From Deltaproteobacteria bacterium (GTDB taxonomy: Bacteria > Myxococcota > Kuafuiibacteriia > Kuafuiibacteriales > Kuafuiibacteriaceae), in NCBI GenBank assembly GCA_020632995.1, contig JACKEN010000001.1:265140-329139 (forward strand): DNA of 64,000 nt. Reading direction: 5' to 3'. The translations under genes were made by a program, and so were the position numbers. Positions 25,659 to 54,459 of this stretch are shown here, piece by piece. The first letter of the stretch is position 1; the number at the start of each line of letters is the position of its first letter. A model generated the notes under the pieces. The model was not told the origin of the DNA. It saw only the letters and a program-made list of their open reading frames with translations, and did no database searches.

Positions 25659-28600
25659 GCTTCAACAGCTCGATGAGCTCCAATAGCGGCCGGCCCAGGG
25701 CGCGGACCTCTTCCAGGTTCCGGGCCGAGGTGTGCACGAGCGGCACGAGCGAGGCCTCGAGCGCGGCGAGCTGGCGCGTCAAGATGTCTTGCAGCTCCTT
25801 CGGCGCCTCGGTCTTCAGCGCCACGCTGAGCTTGGGCTGGGCGAGGGCCTGCACCGCCTTGTCCAGGCGCTCGAGGTGCGGCACCAGCCACGCCTGCCCC
25901 TCGCCGGCCCGGGCCGCCTCGACCGCCGCCTGCTCTTGGGCCTGTGCCACCGCGGCCTCGATGCGACCCTTGATGCCCTCGAGCTGCTCGCCGAGCGCGC
26001 CGAGGGTCGAGGTCATCCGGGTCACCGGATCGTCGTCCCCGCCCCCCTGTACCTGGAGCCGCCGGAAGTCCTTCTTGATCTGGTCCCAGCGCGCCGTCTC
26101 GGCCGCGGTCATGATCTTGCGCAGCTCGGCCAGCTTCAAGAGGTTCGCCTCCGCCCCCGAGGTGAGGGTCTGGGACTCGCCCTGGTAGTGGTCGGTGACC
26201 AGGCGCTGCAGCTCCTCGTCGTTCATCGCCGCCACCGTCTTCTCGGCCAGCTTGTTCATGTTGCGGTACGAGCCCTGGAGCTGGAACCGCGGCTCGGTCC
26301 GGAAGCGATCGTCCTGCGACGCGCTCTGGATGTACTGCAGGTTCACCTTCAGCAGGACGTCCTGCACCTTGAACAGGCGCTGGAGCACCTGGGTGATCTC
26401 CTCGATCTCCACCCCCGAGTAGCTGTGCTGGAACTCGGTCTGGGGCACCTCGTCGCCCCGCGCCATCTTGATGAACAGGTGCATGTCCGGGAGCGAGCGG
26501 GCCGCCACCGGGGCGAGGGCGGGGTTCGAGGTGAGGGCGTTCTCGATGTACGAGAGCGCGAAGACCTCATCCTTGCCCTCCAGGATGTCGCCGAGGTTGT
26601 AGGTGTCGGCGCGGTTCGCGAGCATGTCCGGGATCTGGAACTTCTCGCCCGACTCCGTATACGGGTTGCCCGCCATCACCACGCAGAACTTCTTGCCCCG
26701 CAGGTCATAGGTGCGCGTCCGCCCGTTCCACACGCCCTCGACTCGGCGCTGCGCGTCGCACAGCGAGATGAACTTCTGCAGGAACTCCGGGTTCGTGTGC
26801 TGGATGTCGTCGAGGTAGAGCATGACGTTGTTCGCCATCTCGAAGGCCAGGTTGACCTTCTCGACCTCCTGCCGCGCGGTCGCGTTGGGCGCCTCCGCCG
26901 GGTCGAGCGAGAGCACCTGGTGCCCGAGCGAGGGGCCGTTCACCTTCATGAACACCATGCCCAGGCGGCTCGCCATGTACTCCATCAGCGTGGTCTTGCC
27001 GTAGCCGGGCGGCGAGACGAGCAGGAGCAGACCCATCAGGTCGGTGCGCTTGTTCTCGCCCGCCGCGCCCAGCTGCTTGGCGAGGTTGTCGCCGATCATC
27101 GGCAGGTACACGTCGTTGATCAGCCGGTTGCGGACGAAGCTGGTGAGCACCCGGGGCTTGAACTCGTCCAGGCGCAGCCGGCTCCGCTCGCGCTCGAGCA
27201 CCGCGTGCCGCGCCTCCCGGAACGCCGCGTAGCCCGGCACCCGGACCTCGATGTAGCGGGTGAGCCGCGACAGGAACTCGTCGAGGCGCAGGTCGAGGAC
27301 CCGGCTCTGGACGCGAGGGTGCTGGCCAAGCAGGTCGGTGACCTGGGCCCGGGTGAGGGCCGCGCTCTCGGTGCGGGGCAGGTCCGGGGTCAGCAGGAGC
27401 ACCGCGGCCTCGACGAGGGCGGGCCGGAGCGCCGCCACCTCGTCCGCGTGCACGTTGTCGAGGAAGGCCAGGGTCCAGGCCCGCGCAAGCTCCAGCCGCT
27501 CCTTCACCGACTCCGCGAGGGCCGACAGGTCCTCCTCGAACGCGGCCCGGGACTGCTCGAGCTCGAGGTGCTCGAGCAAGGCAGCCTTCAAGCGCACCGC
27601 GTCGAGGCCGGTGGTGAAGCTGGGACGCTCCGCCACCAGCTCCTCCATCAGGTAGCGCCCGGCCATGCGCGCGTCCGCGGCGAGGTGATCGATGCCCTCG
27701 GCGGCGAGGAACGCGGCCACCGCGGCGCCCAGGTCCTGGGCCAGCGCCTCCTCGGCCTGGCTGTAGCGGAACGCCTTCCTCAGGCGCCCCAGCGACTGGG
27801 CGCGGCGCTGGAAGACCGCCCGGGCCTCCTTGTCGGTGAACCGGGCCCAGAACAGGCACGCCCACGCCCGAGGAGTGGGGGCGAAGCGGAGCAGGCCCGC
27901 GCTCTGCCGGATCGCGAGCAGGCGCTCCAGGATCCGGGCGGCGTCCGCGTCGTGCAGGCCCCGCTCGTAGCCCTCGTCGTAGCGGTCCGCCGCGTAGGCG
28001 CGGACCTTCTGCAACAGGCCCTGCTCGTCCCGCGCCGACTCGAGGAGGTCGGGCATGGTCAGGCCCTTCGCCCCGCGCTCGGCGTCGAACAGGATCGAGG
28101 CGGCGAGGTACTCACCCCGGTAGACCTCGTCGGTCTCGGAGACCAGCTGCTGCTGCCAGTACTCCTTGGTGGCGCCGAAGGCCTCGTCGGTGATCTTCTC
28201 GAAGAAGTCGGTGCCGGTGAGGTGGAGGTACATGTCCTCGTCCCGCGGCACCATGGTGAGCTCGAAGCTCTGGGTGTTGACCGTGAAGCGGTGGCGCCCC
28301 AGCTTGATGACGTTGTCGCCGCCCTCGAAGAGGTCCTGCTTGTCACGCAGGTTGCGGACCGCGTCCTGGCGCGCGCTCTTCACCCGCGCCTCGATGTCGT
28401 CGGCCTTGACGGTGTCGCCCAGGGCCCTGAGCTGCTCCACCAGCTGGCGGAGCTTCATCACCATCGGGTCGCTCGCGAAGTACGCGTTCAGCTCGTCGTC
28501 GGTCTTGAAGGTGCGGGTGCGGCGCTGCACGCCCTCCAGGATCCGGGTGGCGGCGCTGCCGAGGTTGGCGGCGCGGCGCTGCCGCTCGTCCATGAGCTGC

Positions 28601-30952: not shown

Positions 30953-33049
30953 CTAGTTGACGTTCCGGCCCTTGGGGGCGGGGAGGGTGTCCACCCCGAG
31001 CTCCTGGGCCTTCTCCAACAGGGTCTCCAGCTTGCCCTTCATCTGGTCGTCGGCGTTCACCATCAGGCTCCCCAGCAGGCCCGAGATGCTCAGGTTCTGC
31101 AGGTCCTTGGTGGACAGCCCGCCGATCGCCTGCAGGACCTCGCCGGGGAGGTTGCCGCCCCCGCCCAGGTACTTGCCGAAGAGCTGCTGGACGCTGTCGC
31201 TCTGGTCCACGAAGCCGTCCACCGACTTGCCCACCGACACCGCGTTGACGAAGCGGTCGAAGAACTGCCCGTCGCCGCCCACGATGTTGATCTTGGCCGC
31301 CGCGAACGCCTCCTTGAGGATGGCCGCGCGGGCGTCCGCGATCTTCTGCTGGGCCTCGATGTGGGCGAGCTCGACCTGCTTGTCCTTCTCGAGCCGGAGC
31401 CGGAACTCCTCGTGCTCGCGACCCACGCCGTCGAGGGCCTTCATCGCGTCGGCCTTCTCGGCCAGGCCCTTGGCCTCCGCGGTGAGCTTCTTCTCGATCG
31501 CCACCGCCTCGGCCTCGCCCTGCTTCTGCACCACCGTGGCCTCGGCCAGGCCCCGGCGCTCCACCGCGTCGGCCTCGGCCATCTTGCCCTGGGCCTCCGC
31601 CTCCATCTGGGTCTTGGTGACGCGGGCCTTGGCGCCGCCCTCCTTCTCGAGGGCGATCGCGTCCGCCTCACGCACCTTCACCTTGGCGAGCCCCTCGGCC
31701 GCCACCTCGGCCTGGACACCTTCGGCCAGCCGGATCTTGGCCTTGGCGGTGCGGTCCGCCGCCTCGAGGTCGGCGTCGGCCAGCGTCAACTTCTCCTTCG
31801 CCTTGTGGCGCGCCACGTTCTCCTGGGCCTCCGCCGCCTTCACGTTGGAGATCATCTTCTCCTCGGCCTGGGCGGACGCGGCGGTCACCTGGACCTCCTT
31901 GTTCCGCTTGGCCTCGGCGATCGCCCGGGTGTCCTTGATGCGCTCCTCCTCCTCGGCCACCGTCTTCTCGACCGCGATGCGGCCGCGGATGACGTCGGCG
32001 ATCTCCTTCTTCTGGACCTCGACCTCCTTCTCCTTCTGGATCCGGTTGAGCTCGGTCTCGCGCTCACGGGAGATCTGCTCGAGCATGCGGTCCTTCTCGA
32101 CCCGCTCGGTCTCGATCGCGATGACCCGCTCGCGGTTCTTCTGGGCCACCTGCACCTGCCGCTCCTTGGCCTCCTCGGTGACCTTGATGTCCTCCTCGGT
32201 CTTGATGCGGGCGAGCTGGGCCTTCCGGAACTCCTCGGCCTGGATCTTCTGGGCCTCGGCCTCCTCGCGCGCCTTCACCGAGGCGATCTCACGCGCCTGC
32301 TTGGCCTTGGCCTCCTCCTCCTGGCGGATCAGGGCCAGCACCGCCTCCTCGGCCTCGACGTTCTGCTTCTTGATCGCCTTGCGCTCGGCCTGACGCAGCT
32401 CGTTGGTCTGGATGTTCTGCTGGGTGGTGAGGTCGGTGATCTTCCGGATGCCGTGCGCGTCCAGGATGTTGTCCTTGTCGAGGACCTCGACCGGGGTCTG
32501 CTCGAGGTAGTCGATCGCCGCGTCGTCCAGCACGTAGCCGTTCAGGTCACGGCCGATGGTGCGCACGATCTCGTCCTTGAAGTCCTCGCGCTTGGTGTAC
32601 AGCTCGACGAAGTCCAGCTGCTTGCCCACCGTCTTGAGGGCCTCGGAGAACTTGGCGTTGAACAGCTCCTCCAGGGTGCCCTGGTCGGAGGCGCGCACGC
32701 AGCCCACCTGCTGCGCCACCTTGAGCACGTCCTCGGTGGTCTTGTTCACCTTCACGAAGAAGGTCACCTTGATGTCCGCGCGGATGTTGTCCTTGCAGAT
32801 CAGGCCCTCCTTGCCGCGGCGGTCGATCTCGATGGTCTTCACCGAGATGTCCATGACCTCCGCGCGGTGCACGATGGGGAGCACCAACCCGCCGGTGAAC
32901 GTGACCTCCGGCTCCTTGGATACCTTGTTGATGATGAGGGCTCGACCCTGCTCCACCTTCCGGTAGAACTTCGCCACCATGAAGGCGAAGCCGATCAAGA
33001 CCAGCAGGACGATGCCTGCGATGGTCGCAAAGAAGATCAAGTTGCCCAT
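30953..33049 (-). CDS. Flotillin-family SPFH/band-7 protein (YqiK/FloT-like) with a long Glu/Ala/Lys-rich coiled coil
   Basis: There is an N-terminal TM (MGNLIFFATIAGIVLLVLIGFAFMV). An SPFH domain follows, and then a heptad-rich region of about 400 aa. The RBS is GAGGGGAG. Confidence 0.85.
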   Translation of the reverse strand: MGNLIFFATIAGIVLLVLIGFAFMVAKFYRKVEQGRALIINKVSKEPEVTFTGGLVLPIVHRAEVMDISVKTIEIDRRGKEGLICKDNIRADIKVTFFVKVNKTTEDVLKVAQQVGCVRASDQGTLEELFNAKFSEALKTVGKQLDFVELYTKREDFKDEIVRTIGRDLNGYVLDDAAIDYLEQTPVEVLDKDNILDAHGIRKITDLTTQQNIQTNELRQAERKAIKKQNVEAEEAVLALIRQEEEAKAKQAREIASVKAREEAEAQKIQAEEFRKAQLARIKTEEDIKVTEEAKERQVQVAQKNRERVIAIETERVEKDRMLEQISRERETELNRIQKEKEVEVQKKEIADVIRGRIAVEKTVAEEEERIKDTRAIAEAKRNKEVQVTAASAQAEEKMISNVKAAEAQENVARHKAKEKLTLADADLEAADRTAKAKIRLAEGVQAEVAAEGLAKVKVREADAIALEKEGGAKARVTKTQMEAEAQGKMAEADAVERRGLAEATVVQKQGEAEAVAIEKKLTAEAKGLAEKADAMKALDGVGREHEEFRLRLEKDKQVELAHIEAQQKIADARAAILKEAFAAAKINIVGGDGQFFDRFVNAVSVGKSVDGFVDQSDSVQQLFGKYLGGGGNLPGEVLQAIGGLSTKDLQNLSISGLLGSLMVNADDQMKGKLETLLEKAQELGVDTLPAPKGRNVN

Positions 33050-47254: not shown

Positions 47255-47392
47255 GCGGAACGGACACCGCATGGGCGGACGTAGCCCTCTACAGCCCTGG
47301 AGCTCCTGGGCTGGACGCCCGCGCGTCTACGCGCCTCGGGTGTGCACAGACGCGCCTTCACCGCCCCGGCAGCGCTGCGTACCGTCGCGCCC

Positions 47393-47671
47393 ATGATCTA
47401 CGCCTTCGCACAGCTCTCCATCCGCGATCGGGACACCCTGGGCGCCTACCGCGCCAAGGCGGCCGAGGCCCTGGCCCGCCACGGCGGCACCGTGGTGGCC
47501 GCCGGCCCCGCCACCCTCCTCGAGGGCGACGCCCCCGCCCCCGACACCGCCGCCCTGTTGGGCTTCCCCGATCGCGCCGCCGCCCTGGCCTGGATCCAGG
47601 ACCCCACCCTGGCCGACATCCACGCCCTCCGCCGGGGCAGTGGGGACTCCCGCGTCATCCTCCTCGCCTGA
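47393..47671 (+). CDS. DUF1330-family small protein
   Basis: MIYAFAQLSIRDRDTLGAYRAKAAEAL... has the typical DUF1330 N-terminus and length. Confidence 0.55.
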   Translation: MIYAFAQLSIRDRDTLGAYRAKAAEALARHGGTVVAAGPATLLEGDAPAPDTAALLGFPDRAAALAWIQDPTLADIHALRRGSGDSRVILLA

Positions 47672-47739
47672 CCCTGGGGCGCGTGACCCGCGTCCCACCT
47701 TGGGTGAAGCCCGTCCCACCTGCTACCGTCCCACTCCCA

Positions 47740-48278
47740 TGCTCCGCCTGCTGGTCCTGGCCGCGTCCCTCACCCTCGCCACCCCCGCCCTGGCCGCCGA
47801 GCCCGACCCCGACGCCCTCGCGGTCGGCCGCCCCGCCCCCAACTTCACCCTCAAGACCCTGAACCCGGAGCGCACCAAGAGCCGCCTCTTCGCCCTCAGG
47901 ACCCTGGTGGGCGACGACGCCAAGGCCAAGAAGACGGTGGTCCTCTCCTTCGCCGCCTCCTACTGCGAGCCCTGCAAGCGCGAGCTGAAGGAGCTGGCCC
48001 CCATGGCGGCGGACTTCGCCAAGCACGACGTGGTCCTGGCGGTGGTCATCATCGACACCGAGCCCGACGCGATCGCGGAGATGAAGAAGCTCACCGTCGA
48101 CGAGCTGAACCTGGCGTACCCGGTGCTGTCGGACAGGTTCGGGGTGCTGGCGCGCAGGTATCAGGCCGAGCAGCTGCCGAAGACGGTGGTGGTGGGCCCG
48201 GATGGGTTGGTGAAGTATGTGGCGACCGGGTTCAAGAAGGACGCGTTGCAGAAGTTGAGGGCTCAGGTGGGGCTGTAG
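47740..48278 (+). CDS. Periplasmic thiol:disulfide oxidoreductase (TlpA/ResA-like thioredoxin fold)
   Basis: The signal is MLRLLVLAASLTLATPALA. The active site is SFAASYCEPCKRE (CxxC). Confidence 0.7.
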
Positions 48279-48516
48279 GTTGCGGAGTTGTGGCGGGGCG
48301 GAGTCCAGAAGAGGAAGGCCCGCCTAAACCCTGGGAATCAGGCTCCTTTTCGGACTTGATCGAACCGATTCCGTCCAAGTGATTTCAGAGAGTTACGCGC
48401 GTTCTGATCCAGATTGTGGATCCCGCCCGTTGTGGAGTTATCGAGCAGGATTTGGCTGGCTGCGTGGCCGATGCAGCGACTTGCAGGCCAGACCAGTCTC
48501 GACAATAATGGCGCCA

Positions 48517-48917
48517 TGACCAACGAACGGGAAGAAGCCATACGACAGCTCGTACTGGGTGCAGCAGACCCATCCATCCTCGAAGACTATGTCGCAGAGC
48601 CTGAGGCATTGATTGAGGATATTAGGGGGGTACTACGGGATTCCATGCCGACCGCTGCGAAGCCGATCGTTCTTCGGCAGGGTCGCTTGTCGCTCTCGAC
48701 TGAATCCGCAAAGTACATAGCAGTCGTAATCGCCGCGGCTGACTTGCTTCTAGGATCGATGGATGCCTACCTCGATGCGGACAAGGACGGCTTTGTGAGT
48801 GAGGATGCCGAGAAGTCGTTCCTCGAAGAAGTCCGACAGAGATGTGGGGCAGTGGCTCTTACTCCTCGTGTTCAGTTGGCGGTCGTCAAGCTGGCGGTGG
48901 TCGCGGCCGCGTTGTAG
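48517..48917 (+). CDS. Hypothetical protein encoded on the low-GC island
   Basis: The ATG at 48517 (MTNEREEAIRQL...) gives a hydrophobic C-terminus. GC is clearly lower than the chromosomal background. Confidence 0.4.
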
Positions 48918-48935
48918 TCGATGACTTCCATCGGT

Positions 48936-50123
48936 CTATCCTGGCGCCTGACCTTGCAGCGACAGCAGGGTTCGCACGTGCGCGTCGAGGCGCATAGTAG
49001 TCATCTGCAAGAATTGAATCCTTCCCCAGACTACCCATGCCAGCAATACACAGCAGAGAACAATTAACGCTACGAGCCAACTCCGATGGAAGAACTCGGG
49101 CGAGATGGTCCACGCGGCCACGAATGCGGCCGCCAGCCTGCAGCAGAAGACGAAGGGCGTAAGAAGGCGTTCGTGAATTGTCACGTGTGGCGGGATCCGC
49201 AGCCTTCTGCCAGAATTCGCGTATGCGCCAAGGAACCTCAACAACGGGAGGCGACGCTTCCCATGTAGCGCTGCGTTGGGGTCGCGGCTTTCGGCCTGGA
49301 TCTCGTGTCGTGCAATTGCTCTCTGTAGGGCGTGTGCTGCGTAGTCGGATCCGAATCTATTCTCGAGTTGACTATACGCAAAGAGATCCGCGGTCCACTC
49401 GTTTGCTGTCTTCGACTTTTCGATTAAGTAGTTGATGATCCCCGCCGATACTATCACGCAAATGGGCCATGCGCTCATTGGGAGCATCGCTGCAGGGAGG
49501 TAATATGAGAGCATTCGAGGTCCAACTAGTGCATTATTGGCGTTGTCATTGCGCGCTGCCGTAGTTGCATGCCCCAGCTCGTGATAGGCTTCATACATCA
49601 GGCCGGGTGTGTCGACGTCGGGGACGCGGTCCAAGATGAGGATGTTTGCGTCGTACTTCAGGAAGGCGACATTGTGGTGCAAACGTTCTCCAGTCTTCGA
49701 GGCTCGATAGACCTGGAGCGTTGGCCTGTCAATGGGATGTTGCAGGCATTCCAGTGCGGAGCGACCGAATATGAGGTCCGGAGATACTTCATCGAGCCTG
49801 AATCCTCTGTTGTAAATATCTTCAATGAATTTGCATGTCTCCAACGCCGTGCTTCTTGAATAGCTGGCAGCGATATAGAGATGGAAGATCAAGAGCAACC
49901 AGAGCAGAAAGGAGGCGGGAACTAGCGCAGACCACCAGTCGTGGATCGGGATTGTAAGAAGGAAAGCTGTGGGGCCGACACCGAACGCGGCCAGCCATAG
50001 TGCCGTTGCCAAGATACTCCTCAACATAGAGGAGGCAACCATCGTATCATTGGCTTGGACCACAGAGGGTAGTTTCCACCAGCAGCGAGCCAATTGAAAG
50101 GGTGTGTTTTCAACAACGGTCAT
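48936..50123 (-). CDS. Polytopic membrane protein with a HELGH (HExxH) zinc-metalloprotease-like motif (M48/HtpX-like), encoded on the low-GC island
   Basis: The ATG is at 50123 (MTVVENTPFQ...). There are about 6 TM helices. YHELGHATTAA lies between TM2 and TM3. The upstream 100 codons of the track ORF are a high-GC read-through artefact. Confidence 0.55.
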   Translation of the reverse strand: MTVVENTPFQLARCWWKLPSVVQANDTMVASSMLRSILATALWLAAFGVGPTAFLLTIPIHDWWSALVPASFLLWLLLIFHLYIAASYSRSTALETCKFIEDIYNRGFRLDEVSPDLIFGRSALECLQHPIDRPTLQVYRASKTGERLHHNVAFLKYDANILILDRVPDVDTPGLMYEAYHELGHATTAARNDNANNALVGPRMLSYYLPAAMLPMSAWPICVIVSAGIINYLIEKSKTANEWTADLFAYSQLENRFGSDYAAHALQRAIARHEIQAESRDPNAALHGKRRLPLLRFLGAYANSGRRLRIPPHVTIHERLLTPFVFCCRLAAAFVAAWTISPEFFHRSWLVALIVLCCVLLAWVVWGRIQFLQMTTMRLDAHVRTLLSLQGQAPG

Positions 50124-50481
50124 GGCGCTCGAACGCAGCTCGGGCCCGGCTCCAAGCGTCGTAGGTGCGCCTCCCGGTGCCAGGCGGCCCCGTAGGCAGC
50201 GCTGCGCGCAGCCGCCGGTTCCTACGTGCCTGGTGCAGGATTCGCAACCTTTGAAAGGGTCTCGGCAGGTCAAGGGGCGGTGCCGCCGGGTCGTGACCAG
50301 ACGCGGGCCCAACTCCCCCGCCCACAGACCTCCTTCCCAAGTGGCAGAACGGGGCTCTGGTGTTTCCAGGCCTATAGGGGCTTCTGTAGGAATCGGCCCT
50401 CCATCGGCCCCTGGCGGGGTTGACCGAAAGATCAAACTCCAGTCTCATGGAGCCATAGCTAGCGGGCAAAGAAGAACGACA

Positions 50482-51531
50482 ATGGAACCGACGATTCGTA
50501 CATTCAGAGACTATGCGTCCGATTCGATTGGGAATTTGGTTCTCGGGGAGGGGTTCCCGCCGGATCCGGATATCCGTCCGGGGATAATTGCCATCCTTGA
50601 TGTTCTCTCTGCATACTTTGAGGAAGGAAAAAGATTGTATCCTGAGGTTGTTGTAACCTCCTCGATCGATGGATTGGTTGCGTTTCTCCCTGGGTATCGG
50701 ATCGTGATGGTCGGGGAAGGGCCGCCTGAGCAGGGGACTTATCAGAAGGCGCTCAAGACCTGCGCCCCGCTCGCCCAGAATGGCTGGGCAATCGCGTTGC
50801 AGGTCTCTTCCGAGCGCCTTAAGTACGGGATTCTGACGGCCGAGACGTCTCCGATAAGCCCCGCGCTGTGGAGGCTGGTCGTCGGAGATCTTGCTGAGTA
50901 TGGATCTGATCCTGAGCCTCGTGTTGCGATGCTTCGCTCGTTGGGGCAGAATACTGTTGAGATTCGTGGAAGGAGGGCTGCCTTGCAGCTGGTCTTCTCG
51001 GTTCGTGTCGCTGCTCCGCACGATGCATCTCCCAGAGATGTGGTCCTTGATCAACTGGTGCGAGACATAGGTGAGGAGTCAAGAGACAAGGTCAGAGCGT
51101 TTCTGCAGCGTGTCCTTGAGGATGCCTTTCGCGGTGGTCACGGCTGCCTAATTGGAGTCGTGGATGATGCGGACGACTCCGTGCGCGGACTTAGGCAGGA
51201 TTTTCCGGATGCGCACCACCTCAGTGTCCCAATTTCGCTCGGCAAGGTGCTTGTGGAATGCGAGACACAGAATACCATTCGGAGCGCAACCGAGCTTCGG
51301 TTGGCTGCTGAAGTGGTTACCAACATGATAAACCACGATGGAATTGCGGTCTTTACGTCAAGTGGGAGACTGATTGCATTCAACCTCTTCGTGCCGAAGC
51401 CTGATGAAGTGAGAACGATGGGCGGGGCCCGTTCTCGTGCCTTTGAGCAGATGAGAAGCTCGAGCAGGTTCATTTGTTGTTTTATACGGTCGCAGGATGG
51501 TGCGATGCGTGTTTGGAGGTCCCAACAGTGA
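50482..51531 (+). CDS. Hypothetical protein with a divergent diadenylate-cyclase (DAC/DisA_N)-like C-terminal domain, encoded on the low-GC island
   Basis: GHGCLIGVVDD, then HDGIAVFTSSGRLIAFNLF, then GGARSRAFEQM, then SRFICCFIRSQDGAMRV align to GALIVIE ... HDGAVII ... GTRHRAALGIS ... TIVVSEETGGISL of CdaA/DisA. The RHR is replaced by RSR. The ATG is at 50482. Confidence 0.5.
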   Translation: MEPTIRTFRDYASDSIGNLVLGEGFPPDPDIRPGIIAILDVLSAYFEEGKRLYPEVVVTSSIDGLVAFLPGYRIVMVGEGPPEQGTYQKALKTCAPLAQNGWAIALQVSSERLKYGILTAETSPISPALWRLVVGDLAEYGSDPEPRVAMLRSLGQNTVEIRGRRAALQLVFSVRVAAPHDASPRDVVLDQLVRDIGEESRDKVRAFLQRVLEDAFRGGHGCLIGVVDDADDSVRGLRQDFPDAHHLSVPISLGKVLVECETQNTIRSATELRLAAEVVTNMINHDGIAVFTSSGRLIAFNLFVPKPDEVRTMGGARSRAFEQMRSSSRFICCFIRSQDGAMRVWRSQQ

Positions 51532-52844
51532 CGGAAAAGAGTCTGGTGCCGTGGGTCGGGCCTGAAGGGTTGGCTCTTCCCCCGTCGATAAGAGAGCCGT
51601 CCGAAATCCTGCGGTACGCGGTTGCGCTGAAGCCTGCCGACCAACTGCGAATAGTCTCGGCGTTTGCGAGCGGTCATGAAGACATGGCAGCCGAGTTCGT
51701 CTGGAGGCGGTCGATGACTCGATTGCGCGATAATCTCGCGCAGTTGGGAATGCGTTTCGTAGGGGAGATGCTGGATCGAGAGGATGTCGATGAGTCCAGT
51801 TCGCCCGCGAATGTGCTGACAGACTATGACTCGATTCGCTTGGCGGAGGCGCTTGGTGTGGTGAATGCGACTGGGGCATTGCGACTTCGGCATGCTCTAG
51901 AACTCATTACGCATTTTGCATCTGGGGAGACCGAAGAGCAGCTCGGGCATATCGACGCAGTCCAAACGGTACGAGCTTGTGTTCAGTACCTGTTGGGTTC
52001 CGAGGATATCAGGGCCTCGGTGGACTTCTCCGAGTTTCGGGAGCGCTTGCTCACGGAATCCATCCAGTCTGATGATGGTGCTTTTGAGCGCCTACGTGCC
52101 TCGCCCGTCTTTTTCGTGCGAACGACGCTCCGGACCTTGCTCGCTGCGGTAAAATCCGAACATGGTGCTCGCCTTGAGCATGCGCTCAACAATCTCGTGA
52201 CTGCGCTGCCAATCGTTTGGGATCCGCTCCCTGAAACTGACCGGTGGTCAGTTGGAATGGCGTATTCTGAAGCATCGGCATTTGGCAATGAAGAGGCGAT
52301 GACCGCACTAAAACGTGGTCTCATTCGTGTTCGTGGATTTGACTACGTGCCCGAGGATCTCAGGTCTCGCACGTTCAAGAAGGCGGCGCAGGCGGTAATG
52401 GCTGCGCATCATGGATGGAACAACTTTTACAACGAGCCTGGTCCGACGCGGTACCTCAGCGGGCTGGGAACTACCATTCCGCCGGCAGCGCTTGCTGAGT
52501 GCATGCAGGCATATTTGTCCGTCTATCTCGGGAATAGATATGGTGTTTCGTGGGATGCGGCATCTGTTTCTCTTGATGTTCTGAAGGGCGTCCCTGAAAG
52601 CCGCTGGCAGTACTATCTGGAAAAGATGCTCGTCGTCGATGATGAGGTGCTTCGAAAGCTCACGCAATCAAGGCCAGTTGGGCGATTCTGTGAACTGGCG
52701 GATGAATTGGGCTTGGCCAACAAGGTGAATGGCTCCTCGGATATCTTCGCCCTTCTGCAGGCTGCAGAGAAACGGAATACTGTCCGCGTTCAATCTCGCG
52801 CAGAGAAGCTCCTTCAGAACATGGGGAGCGCGGCTGGTTCGTAG
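51528..52844 (+). CDS. Hypothetical protein (about 438 aa, helical) whose GTG start overlaps the TGA stop of the upstream gene. Encoded on the low-GC island.
   Basis: A GTGA start/stop overlap at 51528-51531 suggests translational coupling. No domain is recognised. Confidence 0.5.
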   Translation: MTEKSLVPWVGPEGLALPPSIREPSEILRYAVALKPADQLRIVSAFASGHEDMAAEFVWRRSMTRLRDNLAQLGMRFVGEMLDREDVDESSSPANVLTDYDSIRLAEALGVVNATGALRLRHALELITHFASGETEEQLGHIDAVQTVRACVQYLLGSEDIRASVDFSEFRERLLTESIQSDDGAFERLRASPVFFVRTTLRTLLAAVKSEHGARLEHALNNLVTALPIVWDPLPETDRWSVGMAYSEASAFGNEEAMTALKRGLIRVRGFDYVPEDLRSRTFKKAAQAVMAAHHGWNNFYNEPGPTRYLSGLGTTIPPAALAECMQAYLSVYLGNRYGVSWDAASVSLDVLKGVPESRWQYYLEKMLVVDDEVLRKLTQSRPVGRFCELADELGLANKVNGSSDIFALLQAAEKRNTVRVQSRAEKLLQNMGSAAGS

Positions 52845-52857
52845 GTCTGAAGACCTC

Positions 52858-54459
52858 TCAAAACCGCACGTCGATAGGCCCAATACTCCGCGTAGGCGAA
52901 GTATCCCGCCCCGCCGCCCAAACCCCCACCGCGGTCGCCCCCCCGACCACCGCCACGCCAGTAGCCACCCACCAGACCCACCCCGGCACCTTCACCCCCG
53001 CGTCCACCAGGTCCTTCACCGGCACCGACGCAGGATCCGGATCCCCATAGGTCGCAAGCACCACCCCAGACACGTCCTGGGCCAGCACCTTCACCAGCGC
53101 CACGTCATACGAGAACGCATCGGGCTCCCCGCTGAAGCGCGCCACCAGGTGCGGCGCCCCGTCGACCTGCTCGGCGCGGACCTTCTGGCTCTTGTCCAAG
53201 GCGCCGCCGAAGCCCCACAGCTCGATCTGCCCCCCGGAGACCAGGCCGTGGGGGTCGTCGGCGAGCAGGGCGTCGACCACCAGCTCGACGCCGTCGTCGG
53301 CGGGGCGGCGCTCCACCGTGACGGCGGAGACGGCGAGGGCACCTTCGCAGGCCGCCTTGCCCGACGCCTCTTGAAAGCGCGCTTGCAGGGCGGGGCGGGT
53401 CAGCTTCACCTGCAGCGCGGGGTCGAGGCAGCGGGCGGCGCCAATGAGGCGGGCGGCGGCCGCGTCCCGGCCGCGGAGGTAGTTCACGGCGGCCAGCAAC
53501 GCCAGGGTCTCGGCCAGCTCCGCGTGCTCGAGGCGGCCGCTGGTGCGGAGCTTGTTCAGGAAGCCCTCGGCCTCGTCGACCTGCAGGTCGTCGAGGGCGC
53601 GGCGGGCGAGGGCGAGGGCCTGGTCGGTGGTCACGCCCTCGATCGCGCGGGCCCGCGCCGCGGGGCCGGTGGGCTTGTCGCTGAGGGCGCCGATGGCGCG
53701 GGCGGCGGCGGCGGCGAGGGCGAGGTCCTTCGCGTCGGCGGCGTGGCGGAGGCGGGCGCGGGCGATGTCGGCCCGGAGGCGGTGGGCGAGGAAGCGCTCG
53801 AGCACCGAGTCCTTCTCGGCCGGCACACGGCCGGGGGAGGGTGGGCGGTCCACGCGGTCGAGGCGCAGGTAGTGCTTCAGCTCGGGGAGGGCCTCGGCCG
53901 CCTTCTGGGCCACCGCCTGCAGCGCGATGAAGGCGGCGCGGTCGGCCTCGATCTCCAGCACGCTCGGCGCGCTCGCGGTGACCTTCACCGTCTGCTCGAC
54001 CTCGGCCCGGCCGGCCGGGGCGTCGTCGGGGCCGCGGACCTCGAGCGCCATCTGCAGGCTGAGTTGCGCGCCGGGCTCGGCCGAGGTGGCGCGCACCGCG
54101 TAGCGGACGAGCACCCCGCCCTTGGTGGGGGCGCCGAGCTCGCCGAAGGGCGCGACCCACAGGCCGCGGGGGGCGCGGATGGCGAGGGGCACGACGCGGG
54201 GGCGCTCGGGGAGGGGGCGGGTGAGGCGGACGGGGAGCTCCACGAACACGGTGTCACCCGCCGCGAGCTCCAGGGTCGGGCCGTAGGGCACCACGCGGGT
54301 CGTCTGCGCGACGTGGGCGGCGAGGACCTGGGCGTCGGTGGCCTCGGCCGGGGCCGCGTCGGCGAAGGAGAGGTCCTCCTCACCCGGGGCCGCGGCCAGG
54401 CAGAGGAGCCCCACCAGGGCGATGGCGCCGGTCCCGTGCACCGCGCACGACGCTAGCAC
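52858..54459 (-). CDS. Secreted hypothetical protein with a C-terminal TM anchor
   Basis: The N-terminal signal is VHGTGAIALVGLLCLAAAP. A C-terminal hydrophobic segment WVWWVATGVAVVGGATAVGVWAA is present. The frame is high-GC. Confidence 0.5.
   Translation of the reverse strand: MLASCAVHGTGAIALVGLLCLAAAPGEEDLSFADAAPAEATDAQVLAAHVAQTTRVVPYGPTLELAAGDTVFVELPVRLTRPLPERPRVVPLAIRAPRGLWVAPFGELGAPTKGGVLVRYAVRATSAEPGAQLSLQMALEVRGPDDAPAGRAEVEQTVKVTASAPSVLEIEADRAAFIALQAVAQKAAEALPELKHYLRLDRVDRPPSPGRVPAEKDSVLERFLAHRLRADIARARLRHAADAKDLALAAAAARAIGALSDKPTGPAARARAIEGVTTDQALALARRALDDLQVDEAEGFLNKLRTSGRLEHAELAETLALLAAVNYLRGRDAAAARLIGAARCLDPALQVKLTRPALQARFQEASGKAACEGALAVSAVTVERRPADDGVELVVDALLADDPHGLVSGGQIELWGFGGALDKSQKVRAEQVDGAPHLVARFSGEPDAFSYDVALVKVLAQDVSGVVLATYGDPDPASVPVKDLVDAGVKVPGWVWWVATGVAVVGGATAVGVWAAGRDTSPTRSIGPIDVRF

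What the first reader, a model, noticed from the sequence alone, without database searches (positions are those of the whole stretch)
48280..52855. Low-GC genomic island of about 4.6 kb with four genes of unknown function
GC content drops from the background of about 70% to roughly 40-58% exactly between the stop of the TlpA-like gene (48278) and the stop of the convergent gene ending at 52858. Codon usage and amino-acid composition change accordingly (many K/N/I/F codons). The island carries four genes:
- a small hypothetical protein;
- an oppositely oriented polytopic membrane protein with a HELGH zinc-protease motif;
- a two-gene operon whose first product has a divergent DAC-like domain;
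- an unknown partner whose start overlaps the first gene's stop.
No integrase, transposase or tRNA flanks it. It therefore looks like an older horizontally acquired cargo module rather than an active mobile element. Compact, compositionally foreign modules that mix a nucleotide-signalling-like enzyme, an unknown partner and a membrane protease are a classic architecture for phage-defence or signalling systems. None of the four proteins matches a named system that I recognise.
Basis: partly seen in the sequence, partly recalled or inferred. Interest (0 to 1): 0.8.

Follow-up and report, generated by a model that had tools for sequence, protein, structure and literature searches.

The report
Inserted island carrying cryptic DAC–HEPN-like gene pair
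A 4.6-kb block of foreign DNA inserted between two host genes carries a mobile two-gene cassette, not described in the libraries and papers searched: a structurally cryptic diadenylate-cyclase-like enzyme and a conserved all-helical partner, which is probably a new nucleotide-based phage-defence or toxin-type module, plus two unrelated orphan genes.

Summary
Window 48279-52857 has 56.5% GC against 72.7% elsewhere, and GC3 of 0.58-0.63 against 0.93-0.97. A syntenic relative has an empty site: only 5 bp separate the two flanking stop codons there.

The four-gene-system reading is only partly right. Only g3 (50482-51531) and g4 (51528-52844) form a conserved unit. In 83 of the first 84 loci retrieved (the last is cut by a contig end), from at least 12 phyla, a g3 homologue lies directly upstream of g4. 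The two genes co-evolve (Mantel r = 0.94) and usually have lower GC than their hosts. g1 and g2 are orphans that never accompany the pair.

Neighbours often include SIR2-pAgo systems, restriction-modification genes, integrases and prophage genes. One variant replaces the DAC gene with a fused caspase domain.

No library or paper searched describes the pair. The two published defence DAC classes (Panoptoo/PanDA and CBASS-DAC) differ in architecture and partner. The pair is most likely a new nucleotide-controlled conflict module. Its function is inferred, not shown.

The parts
48279..52857 (.). Inserted low-GC island of 4,579 bp, lying exactly between the stop codons of two convergent host genes
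   Evidence: GC is 0.565 against 0.727 outside and GC3 is 0.58-0.63 against 0.93-0.97. The empty site in syntenic contig L100 has a 5-bp spacer at this position.
47640..48278 (+).
   Evidence: Pfam AhpC-TSA E = 3.6e-19 and Redoxin E = 8.5e-13. GC3 is 0.93. The L100 orthologue is 67% identical.
52858..54459 (-). Right flanking host gene, 533 aa, no Pfam match, convergent on the island
   Evidence: GC3 is 0.94. No Pfam family. The L100 orthologue is 46% identical and ends 5 bp from the redoxin stop.
48432..48917 (+). g1: small orphan ORF. It is 161 aa from GTG 48432; NCBI aa from ATG 48516 (locus tag H6730_01350). Not part of the conserved pair.
   Evidence: ORF list and candidate starts. Its cluster holds only 3 members, seen in NCBI, Logan and ENA records. 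No family hit. Absent from the 84 loci tested and from plasmids. GC3 is 0.63.
48936..50123 (-). g2: orphan protein with several hydrophobic stretches, 395 aa (NCBI: 375 aa from GTG 50063). HELGH lies at 49569-49583 and E-W-T-A-D at 49386-49400. Not part of the conserved pair.
   Evidence: No Pfam, NCBIfam or PADLOC hit. Only itself found among 5.8 billion proteins. One marginal relative, P0142, at E = 8e-4 among 1.84 billion representatives; it conserves HE[LI]GHA and E-x-[TS]-A-D-x-FA. Absent from the 84 loci tested and from plasmids.
50124..50481 (.). Divergent intergenic spacer between g2 and g3. It is 66% GC, well above the rest of the island.
   Evidence: No Rfam match. Sequence read.
50482..51531 (+). 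g3: 349-aa two-domain protein. The N-terminal domain of about 185 aa has no known relative. The C-terminal DAC-fold domain spans residues ~198-349 (51073-51528). Motifs: HG 51139-51144, DG 51337-51342, GGARSRA 51421-51441, SQDG 51490-51501.
51516..51531 (+). Translational-coupling junction: GGAGG (51516-51520), then GTG start of g4 (51528-51530) overlapping the TGA stop of g3 (51529-51531)
   Evidence: Sequence read directly. The same tight or overlapping arrangement is seen in most of 83 homologous loci.
51528..52844 (+). g4: 438-aa all-helical protein with a local HEPN-like four-helix bundle. Invariant polar residues: E80 (51765-51767), H129 (51912-51914), R171 (52038-52040), N222, GFDYVPExLRS 270-280 (52335-52367), H294-x3-NN-xx-NE303 (52407-52436), GN335-336 (52530-52535).

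Best explanation
SHOWN
- The island is a 4.58-kb insertion of foreign DNA placed exactly between two convergent host genes.
- Its only evolutionarily coherent component is the g3-g4 operon. This is an obligate, translationally coupled, co-evolving two-gene cassette. It moves horizontally among at least 12 bacterial phyla, on plasmids, in prophages and integrative elements, and as naked insertions like this one.
- The g3 model has a DAC (diadenylate-cyclase) fold in its C-terminal half. The nucleotide-binding and catalytic motif positions are conserved: D286-G287, R317-x-R319 and S337-x-D339-G340. This domain sits behind a novel N-terminal domain of about 185 aa.
- The g4 model is a conserved all-helical protein. 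It contains a HEPN-like helical bundle and has 12 invariant polar residues.
- g1 and g2 are unrelated orphan cargo.

INFERRED (most likely mechanism)
- g3-g4 is a self-contained conflict module, either anti-phage / abortive-infection or toxin-type.
- The DAC-fold enzyme uses NTPs to make a nucleotide signal, most probably a cyclic dinucleotide. Every characterised DAC does this, including both known defence DAC classes.
- That signal controls the activity of g4. g4 is the more constrained, enzyme-like partner, and a HEPN-like RNase activity is the leading guess.
- The fast-evolving N-terminal domain of g3 is the candidate infection sensor or regulator.
- Whether the signal switches g4 on (CBASS-like) or keeps it off (Panoptes/PanDA-like guard) cannot be decided from sequence. 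The presence of a regulatory N-domain favours the first.
For: Insertion:
- Composition and the empty site.

Obligate pair:
- g3 lies directly upstream of g4 on the same strand in 83 of 84 loci; the exception is a contig end. The pair was also found in 8 of 9 later loci.
- Mantel r = 0.935, with 0 of 999 permutations reaching it.
- No third conserved gene.

Mobility:
- 145 hits among 185,579 species genomes, in at least 12 phyla.
- The pair's GC is below its flanks in 64 of 71 loci, median -7 points.
- Copies on Agrobacterium and Vibrio plasmids, in prophage-like contigs and beside integrases.

DAC fold and motifs.

HEPN-like fold and invariant residues.

g4 is more conserved than g3 in 99.8% of sequence pairs, 42% against 30% mean identity.

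Conflict-system context:
- SIR2-pAgo systems immediately adjacent on the same strand in 5 loci plus L098; type I RM in 5 and 3 loci; M78 regulators, resolvases and integrases.
- AbiC, a Cas gene and a type II RM system nearby.
- Partner swap: a Peptidase_C14 caspase domain fused to the g4 module in place of the DAC gene.

Precedent: DAC enzymes act as immune signal synthases in Panoptoo/PanDA and CBASS-DAC. Both were identified by the same criteria, namely defence or mobile-element neighbours and GC about 10% below the host.
Against: - No experiment supports the model. No PADLOC match.
- Defence-neighbour enrichment was not measured against a control. About half of the eight contexts inspected gene by gene are plain housekeeping neighbourhoods (and this window).
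- g3 fails the Pfam DAC threshold. Most members have RSR instead of RHR and DG[IV] instead of DGA, so it may have another activity or none.
- g4 lacks a canonical Rx4-6H motif; the best candidate is [RK]-[QH]-x6-H. It has no sequence-level link to HEPN. The HEPN match covers only about a quarter of the protein.
- No recognised nucleotide-sensor domain (CARF, SAVED, 2TM-beta) is present in g4.
- The caspase-fused variant keeps E80, H129 and R171 without any DAC gene. Those residues therefore do not simply bind a DAC product.
Confidence: 0.5

Rival explanations
1. Type VII toxin-antitoxin analogue. g4 is a HEPN-type toxin. The DAC-fold protein g3 is an enzymatic antitoxin that neutralises it by covalent nucleotidylylation, as MNT does to HEPN, and makes no diffusible signal.
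Against: No DAC enzyme is known to modify proteins. The Tyr that MNT AMPylates next to RX4H has no conserved counterpart: position 130 is Phe in 65 and Tyr in 16 of 84 sequences. g4 is three times larger than HEPN-T toxins, and its superfamily-wide conserved core lies outside the putative HEPN half.
Confidence: 0.2
2. The pair is not an immune system. It could be a two-subunit nucleotidyltransferase or a signalling pair serving the mobile element's own maintenance or host physiology, with the HEPN-like domain acting as a non-catalytic substrate-binding helper as in GlnE, DrrA or kanamycin nucleotidyltransferase.
Against: The pair is sparse and patchy (145 of 185,579 species) and compositionally foreign nearly everywhere. 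It recurs in tight linkage with pAgo and RM systems and with mobility genes. It can swap its partner for a caspase effector domain. All of these are typical of conflict systems.
Confidence: 0.2
3. One reading: all four island genes, including the HELGH membrane protease and the small protein, form one defence or signalling system.
For: The four genes are physically adjacent, have similar GC3 (0.58-0.63) and were all absent from the empty site.
Against: g1 and g2 are absent from all 84 g3-g4 loci tested. No third gene is conserved with the pair. g2's only relative lies in a context without g3 or g4. g2 is transcribed divergently from g3, across a compositionally distinct 358-bp spacer.
Confidence: 0.04
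4. The island is a decaying relic of horizontal transfer whose genes no longer function.
For: No mobility genes, tRNA or att sites flank it. The closest known relatives are only 34% (g3) and 53% (g4) identical.
Against: All ORFs are intact. Every family-invariant residue of g3 and g4 is present in the window copies. The RBS and coupled start are preserved. An independent assembly gives the same arrangement with an identical g3 protein.
Confidence: 0.04

Closest known systems
Panoptoo / PanDA (PanS minimal DAC + PanE 2TM-beta effector; bioRxiv 10.64898/2026.08.10.743927 and PMC13640721)
   Same: A two-gene operon in which the first gene encodes a DAC-fold enzyme. It is horizontally mobile, has GC below its host, and occurs in defence or mobile-element neighbourhoods. 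The DG and R-x-R active-site positions are conserved.
   Different: PanS is a ~150-aa bare DAC that Pfam recognises. g3 is 349 aa with a novel ~185-aa N-terminal domain and fails the Pfam threshold. PanE is a two-TM beta-barrel membrane effector. g4 is an all-helical protein with no resemblance to it.
CBASS-DAC / DS-2 (DS-2C = CdaG-type DAC of ~550-575 aa, with cGAS-like cyclase and patatin phospholipase; PMC13092281, PMC13069673)
   Same: A DAC-fold enzyme carrying N-terminal putative sensor domains, used in anti-phage signalling.
   Different: DS-2C carries DACNG and DACNH domains and sits in a three-gene CBASS operon. g3 has neither domain (no Pfam hits). No CD-NTase or phospholipase is linked to it.
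HEPN-MNT type VII toxin-antitoxin systems (e.g. SO_3165/SO_3166; PDB 5yep, 7ae2, 8xdj)
   Same: A nucleotidyltransferase gene upstream of, and overlapping, a gene for a HEPN-fold protein. g4's best structural matches are these HEPN toxins.
   Different: The transferase here has a DAC fold, not the Pol-beta-type MNT fold. g4 is 438 aa rather than ~130 aa. There is no canonical Rx4-6H and no conserved AMPylation Tyr.
Cyclic-oligonucleotide-activated HEPN effectors (Csm6/Csx1 of type III CRISPR)
   Different: g4 has no CARF or SAVED sensor domain, and the signal synthase belongs to an unrelated fold family.
M48/M56-type membrane gluzincins (Ste24, HtpX, BlaR1). This applies to g2 only.
   Same: An HExxH motif followed about 57 residues later by E-x-x-A-D, flanked by hydrophobic segments. 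Both motifs are conserved in g2's single relative. The resemblance to M48 rests on my own knowledge of the family motifs.
   Different: No Pfam or NCBIfam match at E <= 1. The family has two known members among 1.84 billion representatives. Its fold was not modelled.

Membership tests
DAC / DisA_N diadenylate cyclase domain (PF02457) | DAC alpha/beta fold | tested here: met
DAC / DisA_N diadenylate cyclase domain (PF02457) | Sequence match above the Pfam gathering score | tested here: not met
   14.4 bits against a cut-off of 27 (E = 0.028). Only 1 of 22 family members gives any DAC hit at E <= 0.1. The C-terminal profile against PDB finds only DisA and CdaS, but at E = 0.23-0.88.
DAC / DisA_N diadenylate cyclase domain (PF02457) | DGA and RHR active-site motifs | tested here: inconclusive
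   D286 is present in 83 of 83 sequences and G287 in 82 of 83, but the third position is I or V. R317 is present in 82 of 83 and R319 in 71 of 83, but the middle His is mostly Ser or Arg (a few members keep RHR). The acidic residue of the SEETG-equivalent, D339, is present in 79 of 83.
DAC / DisA_N diadenylate cyclase domain (PF02457) | Synthesis of c-di-AMP or another cyclic dinucleotide | not testable with these tools
   Requires biochemistry.
HEPN superfamily | Four-helix up-down HEPN bundle | tested here: met
HEPN superfamily | Rx4-6H catalytic motif at the end of helix 3 | tested here: not met
   No conserved R-x(4-6)-H exists. The nearest candidate is [RK]121-[QH]122-x6-H129, a spacer of 7, at the end of helix 114-131. 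H129 is present in 83 of 84 sequences, and position 121 is basic in 75 of 84.
HEPN superfamily | Conserved acidic residue, typically within an Ex3[KR] motif in helix 2 | tested here: inconclusive
   E80 (84 of 84) followed by R84 (75 of 84) fits the motif. Its placement within the HEPN-like bundle could not be verified without model coordinates.
HEPN superfamily | Sequence-profile relationship to any HEPN family | tested here: not met
   Neither the window protein (E <= 1) nor any of 33 family members (E <= 0.1) hits a Pfam HEPN model. Whole-protein and half-protein profiles find no HEPN chain in PDB.
Type VII HEPN-MNT toxin-antitoxin | Pol-beta-fold minimal nucleotidyltransferase as the antitoxin | tested here: not met
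   The upstream enzyme has a DAC fold, not an MNT fold.
Type VII HEPN-MNT toxin-antitoxin | Conserved Tyr beside the catalytic His as the AMPylation site | tested here: not met
   Position 130 is Phe in 65 and Tyr in 16 of 84 sequences.
Panoptoo / PanDA | Minimal ~150-aa DAC with no regulatory domain, plus a 2TM-beta (S2TM-beta) effector | tested here: not met
   g3 is 349 aa and has an N-terminal domain. g4 is all-helical with no beta-strands. Definitions taken.
CBASS-DAC (DS-2, CdaG) | DAC of ~550-575 aa with DACNG and DACNH domains, in an operon with a CD-NTase and an effector | tested here: not met
   No such domains are found in g3. No conserved third gene accompanies the pair.
Genomic island (horizontally acquired insertion) | Compositional deviation plus absence from the syntenic site in a relative | tested here: met
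   for composition; for the empty site with a 5-bp spacer.
Genomic island (horizontally acquired insertion) | Mobility hallmarks: integrase or transposase, tRNA target, flanking direct repeats | tested here: not met
   The nearest tRNA is 27 kb away. The eight flanking genes scanned have no mobility domains. There are no flanking repeats beyond a 6-mer, GTAGGT.
M48/M56-like gluzincin (g2) | HExxH plus a downstream Glu ligand (E-x-x-A-D), and a match to a peptidase family model | tested here: inconclusive
   Both motifs are present and are conserved in the sole relative. There is no Pfam or NCBIfam match, and the fold was not modelled.

The most novel reading that the evidence does not exclude
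g3-g4 is a third class of DAC-fold immune enzymes that cannot be recognised by sequence, and it works in a way not yet seen for this fold. One possibility is that it makes a new nucleotide signal read by a new all-helical receptor-effector. The more radical possibility is that it covalently nucleotidylylates its HEPN-like partner. That would be a convergent re-invention of type VII toxin-antitoxin logic using a non-homologous transferase. In either case the C-terminal H-x3-NN-x2-NE...GN core of g4 would define a new effector or enzyme superfamily, shared with caspase-fused and stand-alone plasmid versions.
Probability: 0.3. Interest if true: 0.85.

Novelty: new variant of a known kind. Interest (0 to 1): 0.68.

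Why it matters
DAC enzymes were first tied to phage defence in 2025-2026. Only two classes are described, and both were found through sequence signatures (Pfam, or seeds from the 22 proposed DAC families).

This pair shows that a further, widely dispersed DAC-fold family exists below those detection thresholds. It has about 145 species-level occurrences in at least 12 phyla. It has its own N-terminal domain and a conserved partner family that has no name in any library searched.

If the pair is active, it would add a new synthase-effector pairing to nucleotide-based immunity, and possibly a new signal or a new chemistry for the DAC fold. It would also add a new effector family that can be coupled to a caspase domain instead and that recurs next to short Argonaute systems.

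The finding also shows that structure-level screening of compositional islands recovers systems that HMM-based pipelines miss.

Tried and rejected
- **Family libraries.** Pfam, NCBIfam and PADLOC on all four proteins gave nothing above threshold.
- **Whole-family Pfam scans.** One of 22 g3 members gave a sub-threshold DAC hit. None of 33 g4 members hit a HEPN model.
- **PDB sequence searches.** Whole-protein profiles against PDB sequences gave nothing useful. Profiles of the two g4 halves gave chance hits only. The g3 N-domain profile gave a chance hit only.
- **Internal duplication.** None found in g3. In g4 the N-half against the C-half gave only a weak match (E = 0.09), although it aligns GEMLxR with PExLRS. 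Treated as a lead, not a result.
- **Fold searches.** Foldseek against PDB for g4 gave only generic alpha-solenoid hits at TM <= 0.32. The AFDB50 library was unavailable.
- **Other collections.** GenBank phages gave no g4 match. E. coli genomes gave no match to the Pantoea copy. g1 and g2 gave no plasmid match.
- **RNA and repeats.** Rfam on the island gave nothing. No att-like direct or inverted repeats were found at the borders.
- **g1-g2 as a second conserved pair.** Rejected: the small genes beside g2's only relative are unrelated to g1.
- **Empty-site search.** The first metagenome scan, with the 533-aa flank gene, found nothing. The second scan succeeded.
- **Literature.** No held paper mentions both 'DAC domain' and HEPN. 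The Galperin 2023 DAC census could not be read.

Full report
**1. The observation**

The stretch 48279-52857 is compositionally foreign. It has 56.5% GC against 72.7% for the remaining 59 kb. All 1-kb windows inside it (0.546-0.593) fall below the minimum outside it (0.636), giving z = -4.7. Third-codon-position GC is 0.58-0.63 in the four island ORFs and 0.93-0.97 in five flanking genes.

The typical value is 52-60% and only one 100-nt window reaches 41%. A 358-bp spacer between g2 and g3 is 66% GC.

The window's two tRNA genes are more than 27 kb away. The flanking genes are ordinary host genes with no mobility domains: a WD40 Ser/Thr kinase, DUF1330, an AhpC/TSA redoxin, two genes without Pfam hits, a kinase and an HATPase protein. 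No att-like repeats flank the block.

**2. Proof of insertion**

A metagenome contig from a related organism (L100) is syntenic across the site. Its genes match the window's 709-aa gene (71% identity), redoxin (67%), convergent 533-aa gene (46%), 133-aa gene (50%) and kinase (74%). It has flat GC of 0.65-0.72 and none of g1-g4.

At the junction, the redoxin TAG and the convergent gene's stop are separated by 5 bp. In the window that spacer is replaced by 4,579 bp.

An independent assembly (Logan) shows the same arrangement as the window and encodes an identical g3 protein. The source is an NCBI MAG labelled 'Deltaproteobacteria bacterium', locus tags H6730_01350 to H6730_01365.

**3. What is conserved and what is not**

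g4 (438 aa) has more than 155 homologues at 40-53% identity, with no Pfam domain. g3 (349 aa) has fewer detectable homologues, at 26-33% identity.

A scan of one genome per species found 145 g4 relatives among 185,579 species. They occur in Bacteroidota, Verrucomicrobiota, Gemmatimonadota, Planctomycetota, Acidobacteriota, Alpha-, Beta- and Gammaproteobacteria, delta-type lineages, Bacillota, Actinomycetota, Cyanobacteria and Nitrospirota.

- In 83 of the first 84 loci retrieved, a g3 homologue lies immediately upstream on the same strand, usually overlapping by 4 or 8 nt. The single exception is cut by the contig end. The pair was also found in 8 of 9 further loci.
- Pairwise identities of g3 and g4 are tightly correlated (Mantel r = 0.935, with 0 of 999 permutations reaching it). 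g4 is the more conserved partner in 99.8% of comparisons.
- The pair has lower GC than its flanks in 64 of 71 host genomes, median -7 points.
- No third gene is conserved. The largest neighbour cluster is found in 7 loci and is a housekeeping ABC-F ATPase.
- g1 and g2 have no homologue in any of the 84 loci tested.
- g2 finds only itself among 5.8 billion proteins. It has one marginal relative among 1.84 billion representatives under exhaustive HMMER. That relative conserves HE[LI]GHA and E-x-[TS]-A-D-x-FA and lies in an unrelated context.

So the 'four-gene system' breaks down into one autonomous two-gene cassette plus two orphan genes.

**4. g3 is a cryptic DAC-fold enzyme**

By sequence the relationship is sub-threshold. 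The Pfam DAC score is 14.4 bits against a cut-off of 27, and only 1 of 22 members gives any DAC hit. A profile of the C-terminal 150 residues recovers only DisA and CdaS from 177,635 PDB sequences, at E = 0.23-0.88. Those alignments superpose:
- HG-L on (F/H)GALI;
- D286-G287 on the catalytic DGA;
- GGAR-x-R on GTRHR.

Across 83 sequences D286 is invariant. G287, R317, S337 and G340 are each present in 82 of 83, D339 in 79 of 83 and R319 in 71 of 83. A few members keep a full RHR. This pattern argues for a nucleotide-binding, probably catalytic, domain.

**5. g4 is a conserved all-helical protein with a HEPN-like sub-domain**

No sequence method links g4 to HEPN, and the defining Rx4-6H motif is absent. 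The closest arrangement is E80-x3-R84 followed by [RK]121-[QH]122-x6-H129 at the end of a long helix. This resembles the Ex3[KR] plus Rx4-6H layout described for HEPN, but with a 7-residue spacer. I therefore call g4 'HEPN-like fold, catalytic motif not canonical'.

Twelve polar residues are invariant or nearly invariant in 84 sequences: E80, H129, R171, N222, D272, E276, R279, S280, H294, N299, E303 and N336. This indicates an enzyme or a very constrained ligand site.

A more distant branch, at 21-23% identity, has no DAC partner. It occurs on 12-kb Clostridium perfringens plasmids, on a Pantoea plasmid just downstream of a DUF4297-HerA defence system, and on Streptomyces plasmids beside DUF4238. 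It keeps only the C-terminal core: H294, N298-N299, E303, G335-N336, N222 and W231.

**6. Genomic context**

Contexts are mixed.
- **Mobile or defence settings:**
  - Ferruginibacter: AbiC and resolvases.
  - Burkholderia: integrase and an HTH-M78 regulator.
  - A contig carrying a Cas gene.
  - A prophage-like region with integrase, S24 repressor and terminase.
  - A Vibrio plasmid with a C-protein-type regulator and a type II RM system.
  - Four IMG/VR prophage-like contigs.
- **Solitary insertions among housekeeping genes**, as in this window.

Recurrent neighbours are mostly defence or mobility genes:
- SIR2-(APAZ)-Piwi short Argonaute systems directly adjacent on the same strand in 5 loci plus L098;
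- type I RM HsdM (5 loci) and HsdR (3 loci);
- Peptidase_M78 regulators (6 loci);
- resolvases (4 loci) and integrases (4 loci).

I did not measure enrichment against a control, so the defence-island association is suggestive, not established.

**7. A partner swap**

In L098 the g4 module is fused to an N-terminal Peptidase_C14 caspase domain (E = 1.4e-13), and there is no DAC gene. The module keeps E80, H129, R171, GFDYVPENLRS, H-x3-NNFYNEP and GN. It sits 38 nt downstream of a SIR2-domain protein that falls in the same neighbour cluster as the SIR2-pAgo genes.

Modular exchange of a nucleotide enzyme for a protease is typical of conflict systems. It also shows that the N-half invariant residues are not there merely to bind a DAC product.

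**8. Comparison with what is known**

Two 2026 preprints and two 2026 papers describe defence DACs:
- minimal ~150-aa PanS with the 2TM-beta effector PanE (Panoptoo/PanDA), where constitutive c-di-AMP or cUA represses the effector;
- ~550-575-aa CdaG/DS-2C in CBASS-DAC.

Both were found through Pfam signatures or seeds from the 22 proposed DAC families. The pair here matches neither in size, domain content or partner, and it falls below those sequence thresholds. No held paper combines 'DAC domain' with HEPN. The 2013 HEPN census lists no cyclase-linked family.

The nearest conceptual relatives are:
- Panoptoo/PanDA and CBASS-DAC (a DAC as immune synthase);
- HEPN-MNT type VII toxin-antitoxins (a nucleotidyltransferase upstream of a HEPN protein);
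- cOA-activated Csm6.

**9. Mechanism**

*Shown:* the insertion; the obligate, co-evolving, mobile pair; the DAC fold with conserved active-site positions; the HEPN-like fold with many invariant polar residues; the modular partner swap.

*Inferred:* the pair is a conflict module in which the DAC-fold enzyme's nucleotide chemistry controls g4.

My estimates are:
- about 0.5 for a diffusible nucleotide signal (positive or guard-type control);
- about 0.2 for covalent nucleotidylylation of g4 (type VII-like);
- about 0.2 for a non-immune nucleotidyltransferase or signalling role.

The four-gene reading and the relic reading are both unlikely.

**10. Verdict**

The island is real and its limits are proven. 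Its interesting content is a two-gene cassette not described in the libraries and papers searched. It pairs a structurally cryptic DAC-fold enzyme with a conserved HEPN-like partner family that has no name in those libraries. I rate it a new variant of a known kind (nucleotide-enzyme-based conflict systems). Its function is not yet tested.

Noticed in passing
L098:7188-9272 (IMGVR_UViG_2788500236_000002): A g4-like module is fused to an N-terminal Peptidase_C14 caspase domain (E = 1.4e-13). No DAC gene is present. It lies 38 nt downstream of a 1,045-aa SIR2-domain protein. This is a partner swap, DAC to caspase.
   Followed up: partly
L008:5778-8906; L046:2865-6020; L063:2471-5626; L075:11361-14516; L077:5200-7131; L098:4012-7146: SIR2-(APAZ)/Piwi short Argonaute systems lie immediately beside the g3-g4 pair in six loci from different genera. 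In five of the six they are on the same strand with gaps of about 30-50 nt, sometimes upstream and sometimes downstream. This could be co-transfer or functional linkage. It was not tested against expectation.
   Followed up: partly
L085:4785-6203, L086:4821-6236, L087:4740-6185 (plasmids of C. perfringens, Pantoea, Streptomyces): A distant DAC-less branch of the g4 superfamily (21-23% identity, ~470-480 aa) keeps only the C-terminal H-x3-NN-x2-NE...GN core. It stands alone on 12-kb Clostridium plasmids. In Pantoea it sits directly after a DUF4297-HerA defence system.
   Followed up: partly
window 50124-50481: The divergent g2/g3 intergenic spacer is 66% GC against 55-57% for the rest of the island, with a 100-nt peak of 77% near 50119. 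The island may combine DNA of two origins. No Rfam element was found there.
   Followed up: partly
window 48936-50123 (-) and L089:568-1683: g2 and its single known relative define a very rare membrane-protein family with conserved HE[LI]GHA and E-x-[TS]-A-D-x-FA motifs (gluzincin-like). By eye, the ORF downstream of the relative resembles the N-terminus of a tyrosine recombinase. This was not tested.
   Followed up: partly
window 48275-48280 and 52841-52846: The hexamer GTAGGT occurs at both the redoxin stop (left junction) and the g4 stop (13 bp from the right junction). It could be microhomology used during integration, or chance.
   Followed up: no
L092:8874-10001: One g3 homologue (375 aa) carries a precomputed Pfam DUF2934 hit. 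This suggests an N-terminal extension in some members.
   Followed up: no
window 26001-27000 and 32001-33000: Two other 1-kb bins have mildly reduced GC (0.657 and 0.636, against about 0.73). The dips are much shallower than the island. They were not examined.
   Followed up: no
window 47342-47671 versus L100: The DUF1330 gene upstream of the redoxin in the window has no tblastn match in the syntenic contig L100, where only about 160 nt separate the 709-aa gene from the redoxin match. This may be a second small gene-content difference between the relatives.
   Followed up: no
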